From a virus: DNA of 64,000 nt. Shown one piece after another: positions 1 to 10,763 of this stretch (within the stretch, counting starts at the first letter, position 1; each line of letters begins with the position of its first letter). The notes beneath the pieces were generated by a model. The model was not told where the DNA came from and made no database searches. It worked only from the letters and a program-made list of their open reading frames with translations. The translations under genes were made by a program, and so were the position numbers. The DNA lies in the IMG/VR virus record IMGVR_UViG_3300025133_000049, positions 30,788-94,787 of that record; one strand, 5' to 3'.

Positions 1-218
1 ATTTTTAGATGCATTGGTTTAATTATATATACTGCATATCTAGCTAATCCTAGAACTGCTGCAGGTATTAGTAAGAAACATACTATTGCATACAATACTA
101 TCTTTAACCCTAACATACTATCTAGGGTTATGGCTCCGATCAGTAATCCAATACATACTGAGTTCATTATAACTATGAATGCATAGTCTTTCGCGTATTC
201 TTTATAATCTTTTTTCAT
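1..218 (-). CDS. hypothetical membrane protein (runs off window), MKKDYKEYAKDYAFIVIMNSVCIGLLIG...
   Basis: Manually translated; open to the window edge; two hydrophobic segments; abuts the preceding ORF. Confidence 0.7.
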   Translation of the reverse strand, partial: MKKDYKEYAKDYAFIVIMNSVCIGLLIGAITLDSMLGLKIVLYAIVCFLLIPAAVLGLARYAVYIIKPMHLK

Positions 219-220
219 AA

Positions 221-352
221 TTATACATTTATAGCCATCATAGGCATGGTTAATTTTCTATATCTATTGTAATACTTTGACCATCCTGCTCCATATACTT
301 CTTTATACTTTGCAATATTACGGTCCTCTTTGTTAATCATTCGTGGTCTCAT
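221..352 (-). CDS. small basic hypothetical protein (43 aa, MRPRMINKEDRNIAKY...)
   Basis: Manual translation; AAAAAAACACAC leader before ATG; tightly packed operon. Confidence 0.65.
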   Translation of the reverse strand: MRPRMINKEDRNIAKYKEVYGAGWSKYYNRYRKLTMPMMAINV

Positions 353-370
353 GTGTGTTTTTTTAATTAT

Positions 371-460
371 TTAATATTTATTGTGTAATCTAATCCGGTT
401 CAGTAGCCATAGTGCGAAACATATGACTACTGTTATTAAAAATATATTTATTGCTCCCAT
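371..460 (-). CDS. 29-aa single-TM microprotein (MGAINIFLITVVICFALWLLNRIRLHNKY)
   Basis: Manual translation; AAATAACACAAGAAT leader; hydrophobic helix followed by a basic tail. Confidence 0.55.
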   Translation of the reverse strand: MGAINIFLITVVICFALWLLNRIRLHNKY

Positions 461-603
461 ATTCTTGTGTTATTTACTTTAGAATGTGTTTCTAATGCCT
501 CTATTCTATTTGTTATTTCATCATAGATTTCATCAGCATCGTAATGTAAATCCTTTTCAGCACTCTCTTCGAGCCATGCTGCTAGTTTCTTTAGTTCGTC
601 CAT
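448..603 (-). CDS. small acidic hypothetical protein (51 aa, MDELKKLAAWLEES...)
   Basis: Manual translation; TAATG stop/start overlap with 603..878. Confidence 0.65.
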   Translation of the reverse strand: MDELKKLAAWLEESAEKDLHYDADEIYDEITNRIEALETHSKVNNTRIWEQ

Positions 604-878
604 TATTTTTGAAGTGTTGTTACGATTAAATATTGTTCAGATAGTTTAGCAAGAGCTTTAAGTTCATTAATACTAAATCTAGCATCCTCAGATGCATATA
701 ATAATGTATTACCATCATCAATAACTTTGACGTATCCTTCAGTTCTTAATACTTTCATTGATCCAGAGTATGAATCAGTTGTTTCAGTGTTCCAAACTGC
801 AAATGCTAGTGATATAATTAGTATAATACCTAGTATTGTACTAAAGTGATCAAATATAAATTGTTTAAATGTTTTCAT
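603..878 (-). CDS. hypothetical protein with N-terminal TM helix
   Basis: ORF track; translational coupling with both neighbours. Confidence 0.75.
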   Translation of the reverse strand: MKTFKQFIFDHFSTILGIILIISLAFAVWNTETTDSYSGSMKVLRTEGYVKVIDDGNTLLYASEDARFSINELKALAKLSEQYLIVTTLQK

Positions 879-1087
879 TATCCTAATCTTATGTTGTTAA
901 TACTATTAATTGTTAAGTGTTCTGCTAATCTTGTTGTGTATATTTTACAGCTCACTGTATTGTTAGCCTTTTCAGGTGTCCAAGTTCTAATGTGTTCAGT
1001 TATATCTTCGAATGAACTAAATGTTTGTTCATCCGTAATAATAAGATTTGCAGGTGTTTGCCATTTATGTATGAGTAAATACTCCAT
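878..1087 (-). CDS. hypothetical early protein
   Basis: ORF track; coupled to neighbours. Confidence 0.7.
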   Translation of the reverse strand: MEYLLIHKWQTPANLIITDEQTFSSFEDITEHIRTWTPEKANNTVSCKIYTTRLAEHLTINSINNIRLG

Positions 1088-1090
1088 AGT

Positions 1091-1366
1091 TTAACGTGTT
1101 ATTTGTTCTATTGAAACTGTTTCCTCATTAAATAGTACTCCATCTTCATTATTATATGACCAAGTGACAGCATAACCTTTATGAATAAAGAAGCCAACAT
1201 ATCTAGTTAACCTACGTGTAGGATAATTATCATGATTACTATATTCCCAGGCTTTTGTTTTTTGTTCTGGTGTTTGATTTGGTACTAATAATGCTTTAAT
1301 TTCAACCACTGCATCCTCATCTTGAGGAGCAGTAGTTTTGTTTAGTTCTTCTGTAAGTTTTCTCAT
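1091..1366 (-). CDS. hypothetical early protein
   Basis: ORF track; AAATAACACACAA leader. Confidence 0.75.
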   Translation of the reverse strand: MRKLTEELNKTTAPQDEDAVVEIKALLVPNQTPEQKTKAWEYSNHDNYPTRRLTRYVGFFIHKGYAVTWSYNNEDGVLFNEETVSIEQITR

Positions 1367-1373
1367 TTGTGTG

Positions 1374-1460
1374 TTATTTATAGTTGTCTAGAACATCACT
1401 ACATGTGCCTACTATCCATCCAACTAAAATTATTACTAATATTACTCCAAGTATTATCAT
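1374..1460 (-). CDS. 28-aa single-TM microprotein (MIILGVILVIILVGWIVGTCSDVLDNYK)
   Basis: Manual translation; fills the gap between two ORFs exactly. Confidence 0.55.
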   Translation of the reverse strand: MIILGVILVIILVGWIVGTCSDVLDNYK

Positions 1461-1461
1461 A

Positions 1462-1608
1462 TTACTCTTCTTTGTGTACATCGAGAACACTAGGCATACA
1501 TACCTTGTCCCTTAATATACTGATTGCTTGTTTTGTTGAATTAGCTTTGATCATTGTTACGTGATGATGAGCTGTACTATCGATGATGTATCTTAATGTG
1601 TATACCAT
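1462..1608 (-). CDS. hypothetical protein (likely start MVYTLRY at 1608)
   Basis: ORF 1462..1650 from the track; the ATG at 1608 has an AAATAACACAATC leader like other early genes. Confidence 0.6.
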   Translation of the reverse strand: MVYTLRYIIDSTAHHHVTMIKANSTKQAISILRDKVCMPSVLDVHKEE

Positions 1609-1688
1609 GATTGTGTTATTTAGTGTGATTTGTAAAACCAAGGCCAACACATTACATGTTGACCTGGTTTACACACACAAATTATACT

Positions 1689-1859
1689 CTAATCTAATTT
1701 ATTTAAAATGTCATTAATAAACCCACCCTGTTGGGTACGTCTATTTTTACGCTTTACTTGTCGTTCAATCTTGTGGTCTTGTATATCACGGTTAAACTTA
1801 CTCTCTCTGTATAGATAGTGAAGTGTTGCTAATACAATTCCAATGGCTAAGGGTGTCAT
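1689..1859 (-). CDS. 56-aa protein with N-terminal hydrophobic segment and basic tail (MTPLAIGIVLATLHYLYRESK...)
   Basis: Manual translation; A-rich leader. Confidence 0.55.
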   Translation of the reverse strand: MTPLAIGIVLATLHYLYRESKFNRDIQDHKIERQVKRKNRRTQQGGFINDILNKLD

Positions 1860-1879
1860 TTGTTTGAAATTTAATTAAT

Positions 1880-2415
1880 AATTCAGTGTGTTATTCGATA
1901 ACCTAGGTTAATGTGTGAGCACAACAGTCGCAACTGCCTAGGGTTTACATATTTTAAAAACTCTTCAGCTTTCATGCAGGACTGCTCTGTGTTTGTTTAT
2001 CTTCAAGCTGAAGAGTTAAAAGGTAAAGCCCACAACACGCCAAACAGTTGTGGTAGTACTTGGATAATGGTATTGCCTGCTCGATTACCATTGTTTAATA
2101 CCTGCGTATACATAGCAGTCCGAGGTATCCTATTTGAGTACTATTGAGTGATTTAGGCCTACTCAAGCTTTATAGTATTTTACAGTAATACTATACTGTG
2201 TGAGTTAGCTAGGACTCTTAGAACCACATAATGGTCTTATTTGAATGCCTTTATATGCTTGGCCTAGCTATTAGTTCTCCAGGTGTTATTTAGTTGTCAA
2301 TCTGCAGTGAGCTATATATCATGAGGTGCTATGCTCTTGAGTCTATTACCTGAGAGTTGTGAGTGTTTGTATGATCTTAATTCATGGGCGATAACACTCT
2401 AACCCTTACGTGCAA
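1880..2415 (-). ncRNA. candidate large structured non-coding RNA / leader (unassigned family)
   Basis: No credible ORF; many nested inverted repeats, e.g. 1959-1971/2005-2017, 2030-2036/2047-2053, 2054-2060/2137-2143, 2171-2179/2187-2195, 2206-2213/2263-2270, 2361-2367/2393-2399. Strand inferred from flanking genes. Confidence 0.5.
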
Positions 2416-2416
2416 T

Positions 2417-2659
2417 TTACATTGTAATGAATAAGTAGATAGCTCCTAACCATATTGCCAGTGTTATCAATATAACCAGTAGGCAACCAATGTTAGCGCC
2501 TACTACTCTATCTTGATACTCTTGTATTTCGTCTCTTTTATTTTGTAGTTCTTGATACTTATTAGTATGTTCTTGATATTTACTTTCTTGTTCTTGGTAT
2601 TTATGTACTAGTTCTGGATCTTTACCAATAAGATCAATTAGTTTATCGTTATTTTTCAT
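2417..2659 (-). CDS. coiled-coil protein with C-terminal TM helix
   Basis: ORF track; heptad-like KYQE repeats followed by a hydrophobic C-terminus. Confidence 0.75.
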   Translation of the reverse strand: MKNNDKLIDLIGKDPELVHKYQEQESKYQEHTNKYQELQNKRDEIQEYQDRVVGANIGCLLVILITLAIWLGAIYLFITM

Positions 2660-2856
2660 GGGTGTGTGTTTAATAAATGATTCATTGCTTGCTCTTTACT
2701 ATTAAAATATCTTGACTCTCTTGTGTATGGTCCTTCATCACACATTCTACCAACATAATATCCAGCGTTGGATCTTAATACTTGTAGTTCCGTGATACCT
2801 GTTACACCTTCTTCATCAGTGTAAATGAACGTTGATCTTAATTTATCTAGTTTCAT
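2656..2856 (-). CDS. hypothetical phage protein (VLRSNAGYYVG...PYTRESRYF motif)
   Basis: ORF track; ATGA overlaps; motif resembles a small conserved phage protein family. Confidence 0.75.
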   Translation of the reverse strand: MKLDKLRSTFIYTDEEGVTGITELQVLRSNAGYYVGRMCDEGPYTRESRYFNSKEQAMNHLLNTHP

Positions 2857-2948
2857 AGTTGTTTAGTGTTATGGTGTTGGTAAACTAAAACTATTACTCC
2901 GGATATCATTAAAGTTATTCCTATGATTAGCATTATTGTAGTTTCCAT
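2853..2948 (-). CDS. 31-aa single-TM microprotein (METTIMLIIGITLMISGVIVLVYQHHNTKQL)
   Basis: Manual translation; AAATAACTACACA leader; ATGA overlap with the next gene. Confidence 0.6.
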   Translation of the reverse strand: METTIMLIIGITLMISGVIVLVYQHHNTKQL

Positions 2949-2955
2949 TGTGTAG

Positions 2956-3102
2956 TTATTTATTGTTCTTGTACATCAATACCAGGAATATTACTGCTAA
3001 TATTGCTACTGGTATTAATGCTATTGGTCCAAACATGTATGCTACGATACATGCTAATATGGCTGCTTCGCCTCCTCCTGTTGATCTTATTGGTCCTAAC
3101 AT
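2956..3102 (-). CDS. 48-aa membrane microprotein (MLGPIRSTGGGEAAILACIVAYMFGPIALIPVAILAVIFLVLMYKNNK)
   Basis: Manual translation; fills the gap between neighbours; long hydrophobic stretch. Confidence 0.6.
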   Translation of the reverse strand: MLGPIRSTGGGEAAILACIVAYMFGPIALIPVAILAVIFLVLMYKNNK

Positions 3103-3104
3103 GA

Positions 3105-3365
3105 TTAGTGTCTTAAAGCATTTTCACTTACTGTATCATTTACAAATGCAAGTGCATCCCATATTGATACTATGGCTTGATCGTGCATTAGTTCTTTAAC
3201 ACCATTAACTTGCCTAATGTAAGAATAATATACTAATACTGAAGGACTACCATTGCCCTTATGTCCTTTATACTTTATAGTTCTCCAATATTTAGGCTTT
3301 ACTTCATTAACTAAGTATTGATGTAATAGCTTATCCAAGTGGGTTTTAATATTATCTTGTTCCAT
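3105..3365 (-). CDS. hypothetical early protein
   Basis: ORF track; TAAATCATACACA leader. Confidence 0.75.
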   Translation of the reverse strand: MEQDNIKTHLDKLLHQYLVNEVKPKYWRTIKYKGHKGNGSPSVLVYYSYIRQVNGVKELMHDQAIVSIWDALAFVNDTVSENALRH

Positions 3366-3375
3366 TGTGTATGAT

Positions 3376-3528
3376 TTAAAATGTTGTTTCTACTGGATGA
3401 TTACGAGCATCAAGCTCATCTTCCATATCTAGGTCCATTTGTAGTCTATTCATCATTTGTACAGACTCTTCAGATACTTTTAGGTTATCATATAACCATT
3501 GTTTCAAGTGTGATTGTTTGTGTTGCAT
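3376..3528 (-). CDS. 50-aa acidic hypothetical protein (MQHKQSHLKQWLYDNLKVSEE...)
   Basis: Manual translation; TAAATCACACACA leader. Confidence 0.6.
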   Translation of the reverse strand: MQHKQSHLKQWLYDNLKVSEESVQMMNRLQMDLDMEDELDARNHPVETTF

Positions 3529-3544
3529 TGTGTGTGATTTAATG

Positions 3545-4030
3545 TTATATTAATAAGACAAGGTAGGCTAGCCTCTGTATACCTAAAACATCGGACGGAC
3601 TAGCTCTATTAAACCTTATCTTGTATTAATGTAATGCTAACTTACGTGCTAGTCAATTAGGCTTACGGTTCATTACCGGATTACAAGCATTACATTATGT
3701 ACTCTGTTACTGTTATTAAATATTAATTAACCATAACCTCCGTAAAGGTATCATTCACTCTAAGTAGTATATTCCAAGTCATCATGTGACAAGTTAGATA
3801 GTTGGTTGGTGTATTCCGCACCTACTCTTAGTGTTAATTAATGTACTTCTGTTATGTATGGTCAAAGTGTACCATGTATTGTTTATGTAATATAAATGAG
3901 GCTAAACTAGTGCTAGCGTACTATCACTAATATGCCTAATATGTGGGTGAGGTGACTGTCACCCTTCCTCCATCTCACTTATCGTACTAATGAGTTAGGC
4001 CTGTCGTACTAGGCTGTTTGGCCTAAACAA
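3545..4030 (-). ncRNA. second candidate structured non-coding RNA / leader
   Basis: ORF-free; inverted repeats 3627-3638/3686-3697 (12 bp), 3722-3731/3833-3842, 3995-4001/4020-4026 and others. Confidence 0.4.
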
Positions 4031-4049
4031 TAAAGGGTCCGAAGACCCT
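4025..4049 (-). terminator. intrinsic terminator-like hairpin after ORF 4055..4483
   Basis: Minus strand reads AGGGTC-TTCG-GACCCT followed by TTATTGTTT; UUCG tetraloop. Confidence 0.7.
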
Positions 4050-4054
4050 AATTG

Positions 4055-4483
4055 TTATACTTCATTAACGTTAGTTACCCTAAAGCGACCTTCGCTTTTC
4101 TTGACAGCTTGCTTCCAATTGCTAATGGCTTTGATACCATTATCATTGTCCTTGTAGGCATCCTTGACCTCGTCAAGATCTAATCCAACAGGTTCCTGTT
4201 TTGCTAAGTCGACAGTAATGTCGTCTTCAGGTGCGTAAGCTCCGCCTGTAATCTCTTCATACAATTCATTGCTTATGGTTCTACCTAAGCGCATACCGTT
4301 AGGTGTTTCTACCATGATATGAAATCCATTACCACTCTTATTCTCGCGGATGACCGCAGGGAATCCTTCGAGAGTTGCTACTGTTTCCCATAGCTTTAAT
4401 CCTCCTTGTTCACTATTAGTTCCTTCGAAGAACGCTTTGTGTTCTTTCGTGAACACCATTGTTGTTTCTTTTAAATCTGACAT
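4055..4483 (-). CDS. hypothetical protein, first gene of the leftward (early) block
   Basis: 142-aa ORF with an AT-rich leader and its own terminator hairpin. Confidence 0.85.
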   Translation of the reverse strand: MSDLKETTMVFTKEHKAFFEGTNSEQGGLKLWETVATLEGFPAVIRENKSGNGFHIMVETPNGMRLGRTISNELYEEITGGAYAPEDDITVDLAKQEPVGLDLDEVKDAYKDNDNGIKAISNWKQAVKKSEGRFRVTNVNEV

Positions 4484-4627
4484 GATTATTATTATTTAAA
4501 TTATTAATTTATTTATAGCCACCCTAGTGTGCCGATATGATACACGGGGGTGGTGTTACTATGTGGTCCCCGCTCAAAATAACCCGGATATATTATTGTG
4601 ATAAGGGTACAAAAAAATATAAAAAAT

Positions 4628-4659
4628 TTTGGTACACTAGAGATTTATAGTTATCTTTA
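4628..4659 (+). promoter_or_regulatory. Bacteroidota-type sigma70 promoter for the rightward block
   Basis: TTTG (4628-4631), 20 nt spacer, TATCTTTA (4652-4659); consensus is TTTG-N19-21-TAnnTTTG. Confidence 0.6.
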
Positions 4660-4757
4660 CCTCATGATAAACAAGTGTACCAATCTAATGCGTAAATGAT
4701 ACTATACTGTATATCTTTTACCGATTGAAATGGTACACCTTTAAACCCGCATAGAAT

Positions 4758-4952
4758 ATGGAAAGTTACACAATAAGCTACAAATACAAAGGAAAGTGGC
4801 ACAGAGCTATTCACTTCGAAGGAGACTTCACTTTAGATAAGGCTAGAGATGACGCAGATGCTATAGCAGAAGAACAACCCGGCAGACCAATACAGTTAAA
4901 GCTTAGGTATTATCCAGAGCCAAAATTATCACCTAGAAGTAAACTAGTATGA
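4758..4952 (+). CDS. hypothetical protein
   Basis: ORF track; ATGA overlap with the next gene. Confidence 0.7.
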   Translation: MESYTISYKYKGKWHRAIHFEGDFTLDKARDDADAIAEEQPGRPIQLKLRYYPEPKLSPRSKLV

Positions 4953-5782
4953 AAGTAGCAGCAGGACAAATAAGAGCTAATCAACCAGGTGAATTCCGCA
5001 CAGGATTTTTCTACGAGGATATTGTAGATGGTGCTACGTGGGGTGAAGCAGCAGAGGTTACTACACCTACAGGTACAATAGAAAAAGTATTAATACTAGA
5101 TCAGGTACCAATTAAGATCCCGTATATGCAGGTGTACTATGCGCGTAAAATCAAAGGGATTAAAGACCCATTCATAGCAGAGGTTCTTAGGGACTTTATG
5201 TTTTTCAATGAAGGGATAGACCAGGCTGGTATTAGTAAGTTGGTATCTTTTATAGTGAGATACTTGTGCTTACCAGCAGCAGGAATTACATATGAAACTT
5301 TATACCCGGTAGCTTATGAAATGATACCACACTTACCAGACCCAGAACTACTGTATGATCAGGTTATCTTATTTCAACGTGGTAGTTTGTTGCCGGCCAA
5401 AGAAAGAAAAAGCATGAGCCTGCAAGTACGAGGTATGAGGAACAGTTACCTCTTTGGGGAAATCATTCATAATGCAACCTTAGCTGCAATTGACAAAAGT
5501 CACCCTAAATTGAAGATCACCAAATTTAAGGTTCTGGAAGAAACAGCCTCTAGTGGTAGAGAAATCAAATCTGTCAAAACATTAAACGTCCATATTAAGG
5601 AGGAAACAGAGCATGTTTTAGACGTGGCTAATTCACACAGGCATTTTACTACAGGAAAGTCTTTGAATAAATATAAAAAATTCTTAGCTTTACCACCTAT
5701 GTCGGTGCGAGATATGAGCGCTACATTAGGGGTTAGTAAATCAACTGTAATGAAATACCGCGAAGTACATGACCAAGAATGA
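4949..5782 (+). CDS. protein with C-terminal helix-turn-helix
   Basis: MSVRDMSATLGVSKSTVMKY matches an HTH pattern. Confidence 0.75.
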   Translation: MKVAAGQIRANQPGEFRTGFFYEDIVDGATWGEAAEVTTPTGTIEKVLILDQVPIKIPYMQVYYARKIKGIKDPFIAEVLRDFMFFNEGIDQAGISKLVSFIVRYLCLPAAGITYETLYPVAYEMIPHLPDPELLYDQVILFQRGSLLPAKERKSMSLQVRGMRNSYLFGEIIHNATLAAIDKSHPKLKITKFKVLEETASSGREIKSVKTLNVHIKEETEHVLDVANSHRHFTTGKSLNKYKKFLALPPMSVRDMSATLGVSKSTVMKYREVHDQE

Positions 5783-5892
5783 TATAATAGTAACAACATT
5801 ATGCCACTACCCAATGTTCGATGGAGTAGTCGAAGTGGATCAAAACTACAATGGAACAGTAATTAAAATAAAAGTACATAAATACGAAGATT

Positions 5893-6201
5893 ATGAGTAA
5901 AAAAGGAGAAAAGAAGTTAGTTGATGATAAGCTAACTGAGAAGGACGTTAAAGATGCAACCGCTGAGGTGGGTGCTATTGAGGACAAAGAGGAAGAAGAA
6001 AAGCCTGAAAAGGTATATGTACCCAAAGTTCTTTTTACAAAGAAATGGGGTAAGCACTTTCCAGGCGACACAAAACAGGTTCACATAGAACTTATAAAGG
6101 AAGCCAAGCAGTCAGTTGATCAATACCATTCGGGCCAACTTGGAGTATTCACCAGTAAAGACCAGAAAGGAGGGTTTGTATCTAAGGTTCTAGCGTTGTA
6201 G
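5893..6201 (+). CDS. hypothetical charged protein
   Basis: ORF track; followed by a terminator. Confidence 0.75.
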   Translation: MSKKGEKKLVDDKLTEKDVKDATAEVGAIEDKEEEEKPEKVYVPKVLFTKKWGKHFPGDTKQVHIELIKEAKQSVDQYHSGQLGVFTSKDQKGGFVSKVLAL

Positions 6202-6247
6202 TTTCGGTCCCAGATGGGGCACGAAAAACAACATATCTTGAAATTGC

Positions 6248-6275
6248 GAGCGCCCTAGCGGGCGCTTTTGTATTT
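6248..6275 (+). terminator. intrinsic terminator
   Basis: GAGCGCCC-TAGC-GGGCGCTT followed by TTGTATTT. Confidence 0.75.
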
Positions 6276-6290
6276 AATAACAAAAATTGT

Positions 6291-6335
6291 TTCGTATTAT
6301 AATAATTTTTATTACCTTTGTCAGAACAACAAAAG
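6291..6335 (+). promoter_or_regulatory. Bacteroidota-type promoter with AACAACAAAAG leader
   Basis: TACCTTTG at 6313-6320; AACAACAAAAG at 6325-6335. Confidence 0.75.
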
Positions 6336-6342
6336 ATAAAAT

Positions 6343-6942
6343 ATGGACATCCTACAAAACAAGACAGTCGTGATCCCTATACAAGCTGGATCAGGAGAAC
6401 TGCTCAAGACTTACTTGAGGATATTTCTCGCGAAGATACGACTAACAGAAAATCAATTAGATGTCGCAAGTGCTTTAATCCCTAGATACGCTCAGTATGT
6501 AAATGATGGGGTAAGAGAACCTTACGCATCAACCTTATTATTCTCTACCAAAAACAGAAAAGATATAGCTAAGGAGCTTAAAATATCACAGGCCCATATG
6601 AACAATACGTTCTCAGCCCTGTTGGATAAAGGTATCCTAGCTAAAAATACAGATATTGGATACATGTTAGATCCGGGATTAGTCCCATGTAATGAACTTA
6701 TATTTAGGTTCTCAACAGAAGAGTATGAAAAACAAAGACAAGATACTCCGAGAAGTGTCGAAGAAGTTGAACCTACCCCTGAACCAAGTAGAGCAAGTAG
6801 TATTGAGCCAACTGAACCTGGCGCGTACAACAATGATGAACAAAACACAGAAGACAGTGTATCTGAGGAAAGTGGGTTATTGGATACCGACATCGATCAA
6901 GAAGAATCTTTACGCCCAAAGATCACAGACCATTATGAATAA
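6343..6942 (+). CDS. winged-HTH DNA-binding protein with acidic disordered C-terminal tail
   Basis: RKDIAKELKISQAHMNNTFSALLDKGIL fits a wHTH pattern; the tail overlaps the next gene. Confidence 0.75.
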   Translation: MDILQNKTVVIPIQAGSGELLKTYLRIFLAKIRLTENQLDVASALIPRYAQYVNDGVREPYASTLLFSTKNRKDIAKELKISQAHMNNTFSALLDKGILAKNTDIGYMLDPGLVPCNELIFRFSTEEYEKQRQDTPRSVEEVEPTPEPSRASSIEPTEPGAYNNDEQNTEDSVSEESGLLDTDIDQEESLRPKITDHYE

Positions 6943-6988
6943 CAAACAACAATCAATTATAAACGAGGATGATCCTCTAGAATTTTAA
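6725..6988 (+). CDS. HU/IHF-like DNA-binding protein (overlapping gene)
   Basis: MKNKDKILREVSKKLNLPLNQVEQVVLSQL...VYLRKVGYW resembles the HU helix-helix-beta core; ATG at 6725 is in frame with track ORF 6692..6988; ends 3 nt before the next gene. Confidence 0.7.
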   Translation: MKNKDKILREVSKKLNLPLNQVEQVVLSQLNLARTTMMNKTQKTVYLRKVGYWIPTSIKKNLYAQRSQTIMNNKQQSIINEDDPLEF

Positions 6989-6991
6989 ATT

Positions 6992-7744
6992 ATGAGTAAA
7001 GAAGCTAAATTAGTATTTGACATTACAAGTTTACCTACAGGATTATCACCAGCAGACTTTGTAAGAATGTATGACCAACATGGGCTGGTGTTTTGGGATA
7101 GTGAGAAAAACGGCATTAAACCCAAACTGTTCACAGGACCTGACCCATCAAAAGGAGAAGAAACAATTATTGTAGATACCAAAGGGAAAGAACTTGATCT
7201 AGAAACTTTCAATAAAGAGTTCGTTGACCACGAGAAGTGGGATAAGGAATTACACTACTGTTTAAATTCAGCGGTTTATTATTGGAATAATTATGGATCC
7301 CCTGCTTACCCGGTCACTAGAGATAGTGAAGCAGCCTTCCTAAAGTCTCTCAATCTTTCAGACCTGTCCGATGTGAAGGACTCTGATGATGCGGCGAAAC
7401 TTTGGGAAGCTCAGAAGGGTAAGGTAAAAGAAGCTCTAAAGCATGTAAACAAAGAACATCTTCAAGAAAGAGCTGTGGTTATGGAAGCTATGAAAGGAGC
7501 TTATTATGAAGAGGTGACTAAGATTGAAAAGGTTCTAGCTGATAAGGTAAAACTTCATGATAAGAATGGAGATAAGCTTATTGAAATTGAAGCTATCCAA
7601 AATATTGTAGGGAAAATTAAAACAGTTTCCCCTATCCCAGAGGAATACAGTAAGTATAGAAATAGAAAAATGAAGTGGGATCACCATATGTTAATAGCTA
7701 CTGATTATGCAGTTCTATTAAATATAGCTTATAAATTACTTTAA
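6992..7744 (+). CDS. hypothetical protein
   Basis: 250-aa ORF within the operon. Confidence 0.85.
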   Translation: MSKEAKLVFDITSLPTGLSPADFVRMYDQHGLVFWDSEKNGIKPKLFTGPDPSKGEETIIVDTKGKELDLETFNKEFVDHEKWDKELHYCLNSAVYYWNNYGSPAYPVTRDSEAAFLKSLNLSDLSDVKDSDDAAKLWEAQKGKVKEALKHVNKEHLQERAVVMEAMKGAYYEEVTKIEKVLADKVKLHDKNGDKLIEIEAIQNIVGKIKTVSPIPEEYSKYRNRKMKWDHHMLIATDYAVLLNIAYKLL

Positions 7745-7818
7745 TATGGTGGTAGTAAAAATTCAAACAGGTATGGATATCTTAGGTATCCAGCCTGTTT
7801 ATGTAACACATTATTTGT

Positions 7819-8457
7819 ATGAGCATTCAACGACATCCGGTAGATAGCTATGATAAAAAGCTAAATTTTTGGGAGGAATTTCCTGACTATAAAGTTCACC
7901 GACAATTCGGCGACTTCTGGAGGAACAATAAAAAGGCAGGCCAATTACAAAATAGTTCACTATTTATGTGGGCTTTGTCTTTGTGCTATGATAGGAAGAG
8001 TGTATTTTTTGCTCAACCGGAATTAGATAAATGGGAAGTTGTAGGAGAAGACCTCTTTCAGGATTCAAAATTTCTTCGTAAATTAGCCGAGGATCCAGAA
8101 AGTGCTGAACTGGTATTTGTACCAGGCGGGCACATAAGGGATCTAGTGTTAGCTTTCGAGGAAACAATTGATACTCCTCTTGGGATTTCGTTACGTAATA
8201 TGGAGAGGAAGTTTGCAGAAAGAACTAAGTTCATGATGGAAACAGATTATTCCATGGACTATTATGAAACTTCTGAGCAAGGTCGTAAGTTCTTGGTTAA
8301 AGGGACAGCGGATCAATTGGACAAGATGTTTGTTAACACAGATAAAATAGATAATTTATTAACTAAAGCTCTAGACGCATTACGCGCGGCTGAAGGATCT
8401 GGTACTGCTAAAGGTGGCGCTCAAGAAAGTTTAGCAGACGGAGACGCTGATTTCTAA
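7819..8457 (+). CDS. putative terminase small subunit
   Basis: Directly upstream of and coupled (TAATG) to TerL; helical composition; assignment by position only. Confidence 0.5.
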   Translation: MSIQRHPVDSYDKKLNFWEEFPDYKVHRQFGDFWRNNKKAGQLQNSSLFMWALSLCYDRKSVFFAQPELDKWEVVGEDLFQDSKFLRKLAEDPESAELVFVPGGHIRDLVLAFEETIDTPLGISLRNMERKFAERTKFMMETDYSMDYYETSEQGRKFLVKGTADQLDKMFVNTDKIDNLLTKALDALRAAEGSGTAKGGAQESLADGDADF

Positions 8458-10763
8458 TGGCTACACCTATCCACGATGACATGTGGATCTTGTATAAAAA
8501 CAAGATACCAACACACCTAGTAAAACTAGCTACGAAGATACCTGTGATGAACCCGCTAGGTATCAAGTATAAGCGTTGGTGGAAAAGAGAAAAACGGAAA
8601 TGTATTGAGGGTTTGTGGGTTAATCATGACGGAGTTCACAAACACGTCTCTGGCCCTCTTTACTATTTCGTTAATTTTCATCATATACTTCTAACAGAAA
8701 AAGGATCGCGTACCATGTCAAAGAGACAAGGGTTACCGATGCTCAGAGATTTAGAATGGATCAAATCCTTTGTATATGAGGAAGCCAGAGGGTTCTCGGG
8801 GTTTGAGAATGATGATAAATATTCTTGTCATAGAATACTGGGTGAGGTAGATCCAAATAAAAATCCTGAAGAGTTCGAAAGTTTACTCATGGAATATGGG
8901 GCACCTAAACTGGTTAAAACATCTATCACTAGGGCAGACGGGACCTTCAAAAAATATAAACCTGCTCGGGAGTATCTGTATGAATACCAATCGGAAGACT
9001 TAGGTAAACCTATGTATTTCAATATGATGTCAAATGTAGCTGATATGGAATCCAGGGGTGGAGGTAAATCCTATTGGGGTTCTGCTATGTTAGACCATAA
9101 CTTCTTATTTGATGGAGCCAACAACTACGAGGATTACCTCGAGTACAAAGCAGCAAAAGTTCCACTATCTTCGGAATCTTTAGTTGGTGCAATTGATACA
9201 AAATATTCTAATGATGTTATAGCCAAAATGAAGCTAGCCTTGGAGAACTTACCAGGTAAAGTGACTATTGGTAAAACAACATATCCTTCCCCTTTCCATA
9301 GAGAATATCATGGTGATTGGAAATCCGGTGGTACTATTATAGCTGGTTACGATAAAAAGATAGGAGGTACTTGGATTAAAGTAGGTACTAAATCTAAAAT
9401 ACAACATAGATCTTTCAATAGTAATCATACGGCGGCCAATGGTACCAGACCTTCTTTTTCACTTATTGATGAGGTTGGTTTTATGAATAATCTTATTGCA
9501 GTTCTAGGACAAATGAAAGAAGCTGCAGCCGACGGTACCGTAAAATCCGGGTGTATCTGGATGACAGGTACCGGTGGGGATATGATAGGTGGTGCTACAG
9601 AACAGGTAAAAGATGTTTTTTATTCTCCGGAATCTTATGATTGCTTAGCATTTGATGATGAATTTGAGGGATATAAAAACAAAATAGGATTCTTTGTACC
9701 AACCTGGATGACATTAAATCAGTTTAAAGATGATCTAGGAAATACTGATTGGAGAAAATCTACAGCTTATATTGAAAAGAAAAGAGCTATATTGAAGAAA
9801 AATGCTAAGAAGAAAGATGTATATGAAAATGAAATAGTACAGAGACCTACCACGCATAGTGAGGTATTCTTGTTAGCAAATAACAGTATCCTACCTACAG
9901 TGGATCTGAAAGAACACATGGATCACTTACTTACTATGCAAGATGAACCTGAGATAAAAGGTATGCATGGTTGGATGGTGCTGGATGCAGATGGATCCCC
10001 TAAATTTAAGTTTGATTCTACTACATATAAACCTACAGATTATCCGGTTAAAGCCTCCGATGAAAATACAGGAGCTGTAGTTATTTGGGAGCATCCGGAA
10101 GAAGGTAGTCAATATGGGTGGTATGTAGGAGGTAATGACCCGTATGATTTTGATATAGCTCCAAACTCGGTATCATTAGGATCTACATTTATAATAAAAA
10201 GAGGTACACCCCTTAACGGTGGGGCCGATAGAATAGTAGCCGAGTATACAGGAAGACCTCAACTAGCTTCAGATTTCTATGAACAAACCAGAAGACTAGC
10301 AGCTTACTTTGGTAATGCTCCTATATTATATGAAAATGAAAAACAACAAATAAAAGAACACTTCAAAAAGATGCATTCACTTGCATTACTTGCCTATACT
10401 CCAGGAGTTCTCAAAGCAAATGAGACATCTAAGACAGCTGCGACGAGGGTTTACGGTCAACATATGAGTACACAAATAAAAGATGAGTGTGAAATTTATT
10501 TGAGAGAATGGCTTTTATCTCCAATTGGTGACGGAAAATTGCAATTACATACAATAAAATCCATACCTTTGCTAAAAGAACTGATTTCTTACAACGTTGA
10601 GGGTAACTTTGATAGAGTTATCGCTCTGATGTTGGGTATCATTCAATTAATACAGATGAGGTCAGTAGTAGCAGAAAAGAAAGAAGAGGTTGTTAAACAG
10701 GATCCCTTTTTTACAAGAAAACTTTTTGCAGGTAATATGCGAAATAATAATTCAATATTTTAA
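8457..10763 (+). CDS. terL: terminase large subunit
   Basis: Walker A-like SRGGGKSY, Walker B LIDEVG, coupling motif TGTGG, nuclease motifs GGNDPY and NFDRVIA. Confidence 0.95.
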   Translation: MATPIHDDMWILYKNKIPTHLVKLATKIPVMNPLGIKYKRWWKREKRKCIEGLWVNHDGVHKHVSGPLYYFVNFHHILLTEKGSRTMSKRQGLPMLRDLEWIKSFVYEEARGFSGFENDDKYSCHRILGEVDPNKNPEEFESLLMEYGAPKLVKTSITRADGTFKKYKPAREYLYEYQSEDLGKPMYFNMMSNVADMESRGGGKSYWGSAMLDHNFLFDGANNYEDYLEYKAAKVPLSSESLVGAIDTKYSNDVIAKMKLALENLPGKVTIGKTTYPSPFHREYHGDWKSGGTIIAGYDKKIGGTWIKVGTKSKIQHRSFNSNHTAANGTRPSFSLIDEVGFMNNLIAVLGQMKEAAADGTVKSGCIWMTGTGGDMIGGATEQVKDVFYSPESYDCLAFDDEFEGYKNKIGFFVPTWMTLNQFKDDLGNTDWRKSTAYIEKKRAILKKNAKKKDVYENEIVQRPTTHSEVFLLANNSILPTVDLKEHMDHLLTMQDEPEIKGMHGWMVLDADGSPKFKFDSTTYKPTDYPVKASDENTGAVVIWEHPEEGSQYGWYVGGNDPYDFDIAPNSVSLGSTFIIKRGTPLNGGADRIVAEYTGRPQLASDFYEQTRRLAAYFGNAPILYENEKQQIKEHFKKMHSLALLAYTPGVLKANETSKTAATRVYGQHMSTQIKDECEIYLREWLLSPIGDGKLQLHTIKSIPLLKELISYNVEGNFDRVIALMLGIIQLIQMRSVVAEKKEEVVKQDPFFTRKLFAGNMRNNNSIF

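What the first reader, a model, noticed from the sequence alone, without database searches (positions are those of the whole stretch)
1880..2415. ~530-nt densely base-paired non-coding element inside the early gene array
In a region where genes otherwise overlap, this block has no credible ORF and is almost entirely hairpins. It has a ~90-nt stem (1941-2031, with a perfect 13-bp AACTCTTCAGCTT/AAGCTGAAGAGTT core). It also has a multibranch domain closed by 2054-2060/2137-2143 and further stems at 2171-2195, 2206-2270, 2277-2356 and 2361-2399. I could not match it to tRNA, tmRNA, group I intron or hammerhead cores. It is a candidate novel large phage ncRNA (e.g. an anti-defence decoy or protein sponge) or a set of ssDNA hairpin signals for the virion RNAP.
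Basis: partly seen in the sequence, partly recalled or inferred. Interest (0 to 1): 0.7.

Follow-up and report, generated by a model that had tools for sequence, protein, structure and literature searches.

The report
Gene-free island in crAss-like phage
A 557-base stretch without any gene sits among the early genes of a marine crAss-like phage and probably gives a non-coding RNA like those seen in a cultured relative, but its claimed dense folding is no better than chance and no relative shares it, so it stays an untested candidate.

Summary
The window is an uncultured crAss-like phage (terminase, portal and capsid hits; a 2382-aa virion RNA polymerase with DFDID that matches PDB 6VR4). Positions 1860-2416 are truly non-coding. 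Stops fill all six frames under any single stop reassignment. The internal ORFs score like spurious ORFs. Read-through translations hit no protein family.

The "almost entirely hairpins" claim does not hold. Whole-region fold z is -2.2 (+) and -1.4 (-). Local z-scores equal those of flanking coding DNA. The lower energies come from higher GC (0.375 against 0.31-0.33 in the flanking early genes). One feature does stand out: the 13-bp perfect hairpin (1959-1971/2005-2017) is the longest local inverted repeat in the 94.8-kb genome. The second longest lies in a sister island (3529-4054).

There is no Rfam, tRNA, tmRNA, ribozyme or intron match. No homologue was found in any collection, so covariation cannot be tested.

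The best reading rests on analogy. Phage phi14:2 has two long early intergenic regions transcribed abundantly as lncRNAs. One of them holds a tmRNA. Closer relatives carry a permuted tmRNA, a tRNA or a RAGATH-1 hammerhead in their early arrays.

An earlier report of this scan described a comparable non-coding RNA island in another crAss-like phage.

The parts
1860..2416 (-). ORF-free island A (557 nt), the finding itself. The minus strand is assumed by analogy and is not shown.
   Evidence: No frame is open under any code. Internal ORFs score as spurious. No protein-family remnant. GC 0.375 against genome GC3 0.25 and early-gene GC 0.33.
1941..2031 (.). Extended imperfect hairpin with a 13-bp perfect core (1959-1971/2005-2017, 33-nt loop)
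   Evidence: It is the longest perfect local inverted repeat in the genome, with 0.10 expected.
2054..2143 (.). Domain closed by the 7-bp palindromic pair TAGTACT/AGTACTA, enclosing hairpin 2066-2072/2086-2092 (13 bp on + with G-U pairs)
   Evidence: pair probability 0.89 on the minus strand. The local z-score is not significant.
2161..2205 (.). Hairpin with a 9-bp core 2171-2179/2187-2195
   Evidence: (I7). Local z is -1.9/-2.6.
2361..2399 (.). Hairpin with 7-bp stem GAGTGTT/AACACTC
   Evidence: pair probability 0.94-0.98. The local z-score is not significant.
2283..2292 (-). Orphan copy of the CA-rich gene-leader motif (TAAATAACAC) with no start codon after it
   Evidence: (D1, D4).
2417..2659 (-). 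Upstream flanking early gene (80 aa, coiled coil plus membrane helix)
   Evidence: coding score +0.15.
1689..1859 (-). Downstream flanking early gene (56 aa)
1641..1665 (-). Terminator-like hairpin plus U run. It is the first such site downstream of the island on the minus strand.
3529..4054 (-). Sister ORF-free island B (526 nt). It holds the genome's second-longest inverted repeat (3627-3638/3686-3697) and three UAGUACG copies.

Best explanation
Island A is one of two untranslated segments of the leftward early transcription unit of a crAss-like phage.

Shown: it is non-coding, it is GC-enriched relative to its flanks and to synonymous sites, and it carries the longest hairpin in the genome.

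Inferred: it is transcribed on the minus strand together with the early genes. The most likely polymerase is the injected crAss-type virion RNA polymerase. The transcript then persists as a stable non-coding RNA, and the long hairpin serves as a processing or 3'-end-protecting element. This would make it the counterpart of the two abundant, persistent early lncRNAs seen by RNA-seq in Cellulophaga phage phi14:2.

Its trans function is unknown. My guess is an RNA that acts on the host translation or RNA-turnover machinery, because relatives carry tmRNA, tRNA or a self-cleaving ribozyme in their early arrays. This last step is speculation.
For: (1) Non-coding status.
(2) The genome is otherwise tightly packed. 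Islands A and B are its only ORF-free stretches over 500 nt, apart from the 794-nt stretch at the contig's left end.
(3) The two longest perfect local inverted repeats of the genome fall in these two islands, which make up 1.1% of the genome.
(4) GC is 0.375 against GC3 0.25. This does not fit DNA drifting at the mutational equilibrium.
(5) In phi14:2, two long early intergenic regions are transcribed co-directionally, above most genes, from the earliest time point and without later decline. They are 685 and 691 nt, GC-enriched (0.32-0.33 against about 0.27), and lie a few genes in from the strand switch. The geometry matches this window.
(6) Early arrays of relatives hold real RNA genes, all co-oriented with the early genes. 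These are the phi14:2 tmRNA (ARAGORN; Rfam 46.0 bits, E 1.6e-15), L013 permuted tmRNA (68.3 bits), L006 permuted tmRNA (66.3 bits) plus a tRNA, and L004 RAGATH-1 hammerhead (56.2 bits against a cut-off of 56.3).
(7) A weak fold z does not argue against an RNA here. The phi14:2 islands with RNA-seq support score only -0.3 and -1.2.
Against: There is no expression data for this phage. No homologue of the island was found, even in relatives with 65-71% terminase identity, so there is no evidence of conservation or covariation. Flanking early genes are equally unconserved, so this is uninformative rather than negative. Folding is not better than the coding background. The minus strand folds less well than the plus strand (z -1.38 against -2.16). 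There is no sequence similarity to the phi14:2 islands or to island B. No promoter or terminator delimits a discrete transcript. Other short intergenic spacers of the early array have similar GC (0.27-0.40).
Confidence: 0.45

Rival explanations
1. The island is non-functional or weakly constrained spacer DNA: the leftover of lost or exchanged accessory early genes in a fast-turnover region. It is kept only because it does no harm.
For: The early array is the least conserved part of the genome, and almost no minus-strand gene is shared with relatives at 65-71% terminase identity. An orphan gene-leader motif without a start codon sits at 2283-2292. Folding is at background level. No homologue was found.
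Against: No residual protein similarity in any frame. GC is well above GC3, although decaying DNA in a genome with 25% GC3 should drift AT-rich. The longest hairpins of the genome lie exactly in the two islands. Phage genomes rarely keep more than 1 kb of junk. Relatives carry RNA genes in their early arrays.
Confidence: 0.25
2. The island is a cis-acting intercistronic RNA element of the early operon. It would be a long structured spacer whose hairpins are RNase III-type processing or stability sites, or that controls translation of the downstream 56-aa gene. It would have no function in trans.
For: No promoter or terminator separates the island from its flanking genes. The first terminator-like site lies after the downstream gene at 1641-1665. 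The 1941-2031 hairpin offers about 25 bp of duplex. In relative L004 a hammerhead lies at the 3' edge of an ORF-free stretch, just before the next gene. This implies processing of the early transcript there.
Against: 557 nt is far more than such sites need. Other gene junctions in the same array overlap or are a few nt apart. No ribozyme or known leader was found here.
Confidence: 0.15
3. A structured RNA is encoded on the plus strand, antisense to the early operon.
For: The plus strand is G- and U-rich and folds better (z -2.16 against -1.38). Several helices lengthen through G-U pairs only on the plus strand, for example 2060-2072/2086-2098 with 13 bp.
Against: Every identified RNA gene in relatives' early arrays is co-directional with the early genes, and so are the phi14:2 lncRNAs. 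There is no Bacteroidota-type -7 box on either strand, and sigma-70-like matches are at shuffle level. The z difference is small.
Confidence: 0.07
4. The island holds unrecognised microprotein genes. One candidate chain on the minus strand is 2166-2095, 2091-1972 and 1975-1883, where the last two ORFs overlap by 4 nt at 1972-1975.
For: The last two ORFs overlap by 4 nt as coupled phage genes do. The 39-aa ORF has an A-rich TTAAACA leader like some true genes. The neighbouring array is rich in very small genes.
Against: All of these ORFs score within the spurious-ORF distribution and below every flanking gene. They would cover only about half of the island. No family hit.
Confidence: 0.05
5. 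The island carries DNA-level signals: single-strand hairpin promoters for the virion RNA polymerase (as in N4), or a replication origin.
For: Inverted repeats form hairpins on either DNA strand. The phi14:2 polymerase was assayed on denatured and single-stranded DNA in vitro.
Against: The polymerase is the crAss two-barrel type, unrelated to N4 vRNAP. No common motif precedes phi14:2 early transcripts. The stems here (13 bp with a 33-nt loop) are unlike N4 promoters, which have 5-7 bp stems and 3-nt loops (my own knowledge). There are no iterons or AT-rich unwinding element, and the region is GC-richer than its flanks. The only element conserved at the nucleotide level among relatives is at the strand switch (4495-4605), not here.
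Confidence: 0.03

Closest known systems
The two early long non-coding RNAs of Cellulophaga phage phi14:2 (g004-g005 and g005-g006 intergenic regions; Drobysheva et al., bioRxiv 10.1101/2020.03.07.982082)
   Same: Both are crAss-like phages with a virion two-barrel RNA polymerase. Each has two ORF-free islands of 500-700 nt. The islands are GC-enriched against AT-rich early genes, lie a few genes in from the strand switch, and sit among genes of the same orientation.
   Different: No sequence similarity. Expression here is unknown. One phi14:2 island turns out to hold a tmRNA, which island A does not.
tmRNA, standard and permuted (Rfam RF00023, RF04321)
   Same: Relatives carry one in the early array, roughly where island A lies: L006 at about 2.8 kb and island A at 2.1-2.7 kb from the conserved strand-switch element.
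   Different: Island A has no T-arm, no G3-U70 acceptor, no tag frame ending in Ala-Ala-stop, and no ARAGORN or Rfam hit.
Ribozyme-associated intergenic RNA arrays of phages (hammerhead, twister, RAGATH motifs; Weinberg et al. 2015, recalled from my own knowledge)
   Same: Both are gene-free stretches in phage genomes that hold one or more small structured RNAs. Relative L004 has a RAGATH-1 hammerhead in its early ORF-free stretch. An earlier report of this scan describes such an island in another crAss-like phage.
   Different: No ribozyme or RAGATH model matches island A, even at E up to 10.
RNase III processing hairpins between early genes of phage T7 (my own knowledge)
   Same: Both involve a long irregular hairpin of about two helical turns between cistrons of an early polycistronic transcript.
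   Different: T7 sites are about 60 nt, not 557 nt. Cleavage is untested here. The host is a Bacteroidota-type organism by inference only.

Membership tests
tmRNA (standard or permuted) | tRNA-like domain: T-arm with a GGUUCGAnUCC-type loop, and an acceptor stem with G3-U70 ending in (A)CCA | tested here: not met
   ARAGORN finds nothing at default or 90% thresholds. A T-arm regex finds only one weak G-U-rich candidate. No CCACC-like 3' end or 5' GGGG..GA motif is present.
tmRNA (standard or permuted) | Tag reading frame ending in Ala-Ala-stop | tested here: not met
   No GCN-GCN-stop on either strand of island A or B.
tmRNA (standard or permuted) | Match to the Rfam covariance models | tested here: not met
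   No hit at E up to 10. The same search finds the tmRNAs of phi14:2, L013 and L006.
Self-cleaving ribozymes (hammerhead incl. RAGATH-1, twister, pistol, hatchet, HDV-like) | Catalytic core and helices as scored by the Rfam models | tested here: not met
   No hit at E up to 10. CUGAAGAG is present on both strands inside the 13-bp repeat, but no GAAA core element follows it (read directly).
Group I or group II intron | Conserved intron core, and insertion within a gene whose exons join into one frame | tested here: not met
   No Rfam hit. The upstream gene ends in its own stop codon and the downstream gene has its own leader and start. Neither flank has a known family.
crAss-like early lncRNA islands (operational class defined by phi14:2 RNA-seq) | ORF-free stretch of 500 nt or more inside the early gene array near the strand switch | tested here: met
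crAss-like early lncRNA islands (operational class defined by phi14:2 RNA-seq) | GC enrichment over flanking early genes | tested here: met
   0.375 against 0.31-0.33 here; 0.32-0.33 against about 0.27 in phi14:2. The enrichment here is modest.
crAss-like early lncRNA islands (operational class defined by phi14:2 RNA-seq) | Abundant, early and persistent co-directional transcription | not testable with these tools
   No transcriptome exists for this uncultured phage.
crAss-like early lncRNA islands (operational class defined by phi14:2 RNA-seq) | Sequence or structure homology to the phi14:2 RNAs | tested here: not met
   blastn and nhmmer find nothing. At 32% terminase identity this is expected.
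N4-type hairpin promoters for a virion RNA polymerase | T7-like single-subunit virion polymerase, and short conserved hairpins (5-7 bp stem, 3-nt loop) upstream of early genes | tested here: not met
   The polymerase is the crAss two-barrel type. The stems here are long with large loops, are not repeated, and do not lie at the head of the operon.

The most novel reading that the evidence does not exclude
Islands A and B each encode a new class of abundant, stable early phage RNA with no relative in Rfam. Together with the still unclassified phi14:2 g004-g005 RNA, they would form a family-wide strategy. In it, crAss-like phages devote early-array space to interchangeable RNA cargo (tmRNA, tRNA, ribozyme-processed RNAs, and unknown RNAs) that reprogrammes host translation or blunts RNA-targeting defence.
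Probability: 0.3. Interest if true: 0.65.

Novelty: new member of a known kind. Interest (0 to 1): 0.38.

Why it matters
crAss-like phages are among the most abundant viruses of Bacteroidota, and their early programme is largely unknown. The only transcriptome of a marine member showed two very abundant early non-coding RNAs of unknown function. This window shows the same two-island layout in a distant relative. The comparison made here suggests what such islands hold: a tmRNA in phi14:2, and permuted tmRNAs, a tRNA and a hammerhead in other relatives. If island A is expressed, it adds an unclassified RNA to that set and offers a concrete target for deletion or pull-down experiments. If it is not expressed, it is simply a fast-evolving spacer.

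Tried and rejected
- **Known RNA families.** Rfam at gathering thresholds on the whole window and the rest of the contig, and at E up to 10 on 1600-2700 and 2600-4900, gave only miRNA/snoRNA-level noise.
- **tRNA and tmRNA.** ARAGORN at default and relaxed thresholds found nothing credible.
- **Stop-codon recoding.** TAA, TAG or TGA read as sense: no frame opens.
- **Decayed gene.** tblastx against relatives, and six-frame read-through with X at stops against Pfam and PHROGs, found nothing.
- **Homologue hunt.** All of the following gave no match to the island:
  - megablast and blastn against 50,697 phage records;
  - terminase-baited loci from viral, metagenome and genome collections, where all relatives are either at most 71% or identical to each other;
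  - flanking-gene baits;
  - blastn and nhmmer of the island against all fetched loci and three whole relative records;
  - two exact-pattern scans.
- **Near-identical contig.** A 1912-bp JGI contig encodes 99%-identical copies of the upstream genes.
- **Other similarity checks.** Island A shows no similarity to island B or to islands of other phages. The virus carries no TROVE/Ro60 protein, so a Y-RNA link is unsupported. A Bacteroidota -33/-7 promoter scan found no site in or next to the island.
- **Covariation.** R-scape-style analysis was not possible for lack of homologues.

Full report
**What the window is**

The large plus-strand genes match the crAss-type terminase, portal and major head protein families. 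The terminase is 32% identical to that of Cellulophaga phage phi14:2 and about 30% identical to those of gut crAss-like phages. The 2382-aa protein carries a DFDID motif at residue 1590 and matches the phi14:2 virion RNA polymerase structure 6VR4 (E 4.5e-22). The window is bases 30788-94787 of a 94.8-kb IMG/VR contig. Genes run leftward up to window position 4483 and rightward from 4758. The finding therefore lies in the leftward array of small genes next to the strand switch. This is the position of the early genes in phi14:2.

**Is the block really non-coding? Yes.**

- Between the minus-strand genes 2417-2659 and 1689-1859 lie 557 nt (1860-2416).
- Every frame holds all three stop codons, and no single stop reassignment opens a frame.
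- I trained a 3-periodic Markov model on the phage's 51 long genes. Every ORF inside the block, including the 78-aa plus-strand ORF, scores -0.08 to -0.35 per codon.
- That range lies within the distribution of 348 spurious ORFs (mean -0.28, 95th percentile about 0). All but one of the flanking ORFs of over 40 aa score +0.05 to +0.21. The exception is the GTG-start ORF 1462-1650, at about 0.
- Six-frame read-through translations hit nothing in Pfam or PHROGs, and tblastx against relatives is empty.

**Is it 'almost entirely hairpins'? Not beyond chance.**

- Whole-region z-scores are -2.16 (+) and -1.38 (-).
- In 120-nt windows, the mean z inside the block (-0.57/-0.69) equals that of flanking coding DNA (-0.60/-0.74; p 0.44/0.53). 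The right-hand 200 nt scores at or above zero.
- Raw energies are lower only because GC is higher (0.375 against 0.31-0.33).
Others are not robust, and the plus-strand ensemble prefers a different long-range pairing.
- One feature is exceptional. The 13-bp perfect repeat 1959-1971/2005-2017 is the longest local inverted repeat in the whole genome (0.10 expected). The runner-up, 12 bp at 3627-3638/3686-3697, sits in a second ORF-free island, 3529-4054.
- The two islands cover 1.1% of the genome, so this coincidence is unlikely to be chance.

**Known families**

Nothing matches. Rfam at gathering thresholds and at E up to 10, ARAGORN at default and relaxed thresholds, and motif checks for T-arms, acceptor ends and tag frames are all negative. 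A hammerhead-like CUGAAGAG lies inside the 13-bp repeat, but the rest of the core is missing.

**Relatives**

- Terminase-baited searches of the viral, metagenome and genome collections returned about ten distinct phages at 65-71% terminase identity, plus more distant ones. None was closer.
- None shows any nucleotide or translated similarity to the island, and two exact-pattern scans were empty.
- The small early genes are just as unconserved, so the absence is uninformative.
- A near-identical 1912-bp contig exists.
- Covariation is therefore untestable here.

**The decisive context**

The phi14:2 transcriptome paper reports two long early intergenic regions (g004-g005 and g005-g006). They are transcribed in the gene direction, above most genes, from the first time point and without later decline. 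Their function was left open. In the RefSeq record these regions are 685 and 691 nt, and they are GC-enriched over their flanks. This is the same two-island layout as here.

Folding one of them showed a T-arm and a G3-U70 acceptor. ARAGORN calls a tmRNA at 4031-4500 with tag GSSVQKLAMVA. Rfam scores it 46.0 bits (E 1.6e-15), one bit below the cut-off.

Other relatives also carry RNA genes in their early arrays, always in the gene direction:

- L013 has a permuted tmRNA (68.3 bits).
- L006, at 68% terminase identity to this phage, has a permuted tmRNA (66.3 bits) and a tRNA.
- L004 has a RAGATH-1 hammerhead (56.2 bits, cut-off 56.3) at the 3' edge of an ORF-free stretch.

In marine crAss-like phages the early array is thus a place for RNA cargo. 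The phi14:2 g004-g005 RNA remains unclassified, as do islands A and B here. Fold z-scores do not discriminate: the expressed phi14:2 islands score only -0.3 and -1.2.

**Reading**

I put 0.45 on island A being an untranslated part of the early transcript that accumulates as a non-coding RNA, with the long hairpin acting in processing or stability. The remaining weight is spread as follows:

| Reading | Weight | Calls cited |
|---|---|---|
| Fast-evolving spacer | 0.25 | — |
| Purely cis-acting intercistronic element | 0.15 | — |
| Plus-strand antisense RNA | 0.07 | — |
| Microprotein genes | 0.05 | — |
| DNA-level hairpin promoters or an origin | 0.03 | 25, 39, 98, 99 |

The polymerase type, the phi14:2 data and the lack of repeats or AT-rich elements all argue against the last reading.

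GC well above the synonymous-site level (0.375 against 0.25) argues against neutral decay. However, other short spacers in the array show similar GC. No promoter or terminator delimits the island.

**Verdict**

The island is real and non-coding, and its longest hairpin is genuine. The case that it is a large, densely structured RNA is weak. It is best filed as a further, sequence-unrelated example of the early non-coding islands of crAss-like phages, pending expression data.

Noticed in passing
L019 (NC_021806.1) 4031-4500, + strand: One of the two highly expressed 'long non-coding RNAs of unknown function' of phage phi14:2 (the g005-g006 island) contains a tmRNA. ARAGORN gives tag GSSVQKLAMVA. 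Rfam RF00023 scores 46.0 bits (E 1.6e-15, cut-off 47). It has a G3-U70 acceptor and a GGGGGUUCGAAUCCCCC T-arm. The RefSeq record has no such feature in the stretch fetched (1-9000). The preprint ran ARAGORN only on other genomes. I found no paper in the library that states this.
   Followed up: partly
L006 1681-1890 (-) and 2872-2979 (-); L013 3646-3877 (-): Permuted (two-piece type) tmRNA genes lie in the early arrays of two uncultured marine crAss-like phages (Rfam RF04321, 66.3 and 68.3 bits). L006 also has a 108-nt tRNA hit that may contain an intron. L013's island additionally starts with a tRNA-like T-arm and holds a 34-aa membrane microprotein ORF.
   Followed up: partly
L004 1616-1677 (-): A RAGATH-1 hammerhead ribozyme (56.2 bits, cut-off 56.3) lies at the 3' edge of an ORF-free stretch of about 850 nt. 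The stretch follows the homologue of the window's 142-aa first early gene and ends just before the next gene. This suggests ribozyme processing of the early transcript.
   Followed up: no
window 3529-4054: A second ORF-free island (526 nt, GC 0.365, fold z -2.0/-2.4) has the genome's second-longest inverted repeat (3627-3638/3686-3697). It holds three of the five minus-strand UAGUACG copies of the whole genome, within 90 nt. No Rfam or ARAGORN hit.
   Followed up: partly
window 4495-4605: This is the only piece of the early region or strand switch conserved at the nucleotide level among relatives with 65-71% terminase identity (about 75% over 107 nt). It has invariant CCGA and GGGGG.G..TTAC blocks. 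RNAalifold finds no supported structure, so it is more likely a DNA site (promoter, operator or packaging signal) than an RNA.
   Followed up: partly
window 4034-4049 (-): A strong terminator-like hairpin with a UUCG loop (AGGGUCUUCGGACCCU followed by U-rich sequence) lies directly after the first leftward gene (142 aa). Relative L004 has a 10-bp hairpin at the same place.
   Followed up: no
window 221-3528, minus-strand gene starts: Most early genes are preceded by a shared CA-rich leader of the form TAAAT(A/C)ACACA directly before the ATG. An orphan copy without a start codon lies inside island A at 2283-2292.
   Followed up: partly
whole contig (G000): No tRNA or tmRNA gene is found in the 94.8 kb sequenced, unlike in several relatives. 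CheckV rates the contig 65% complete, yet a related circular genome (G003) is only 92.5 kb. The completeness estimate may therefore be too low.
   Followed up: no
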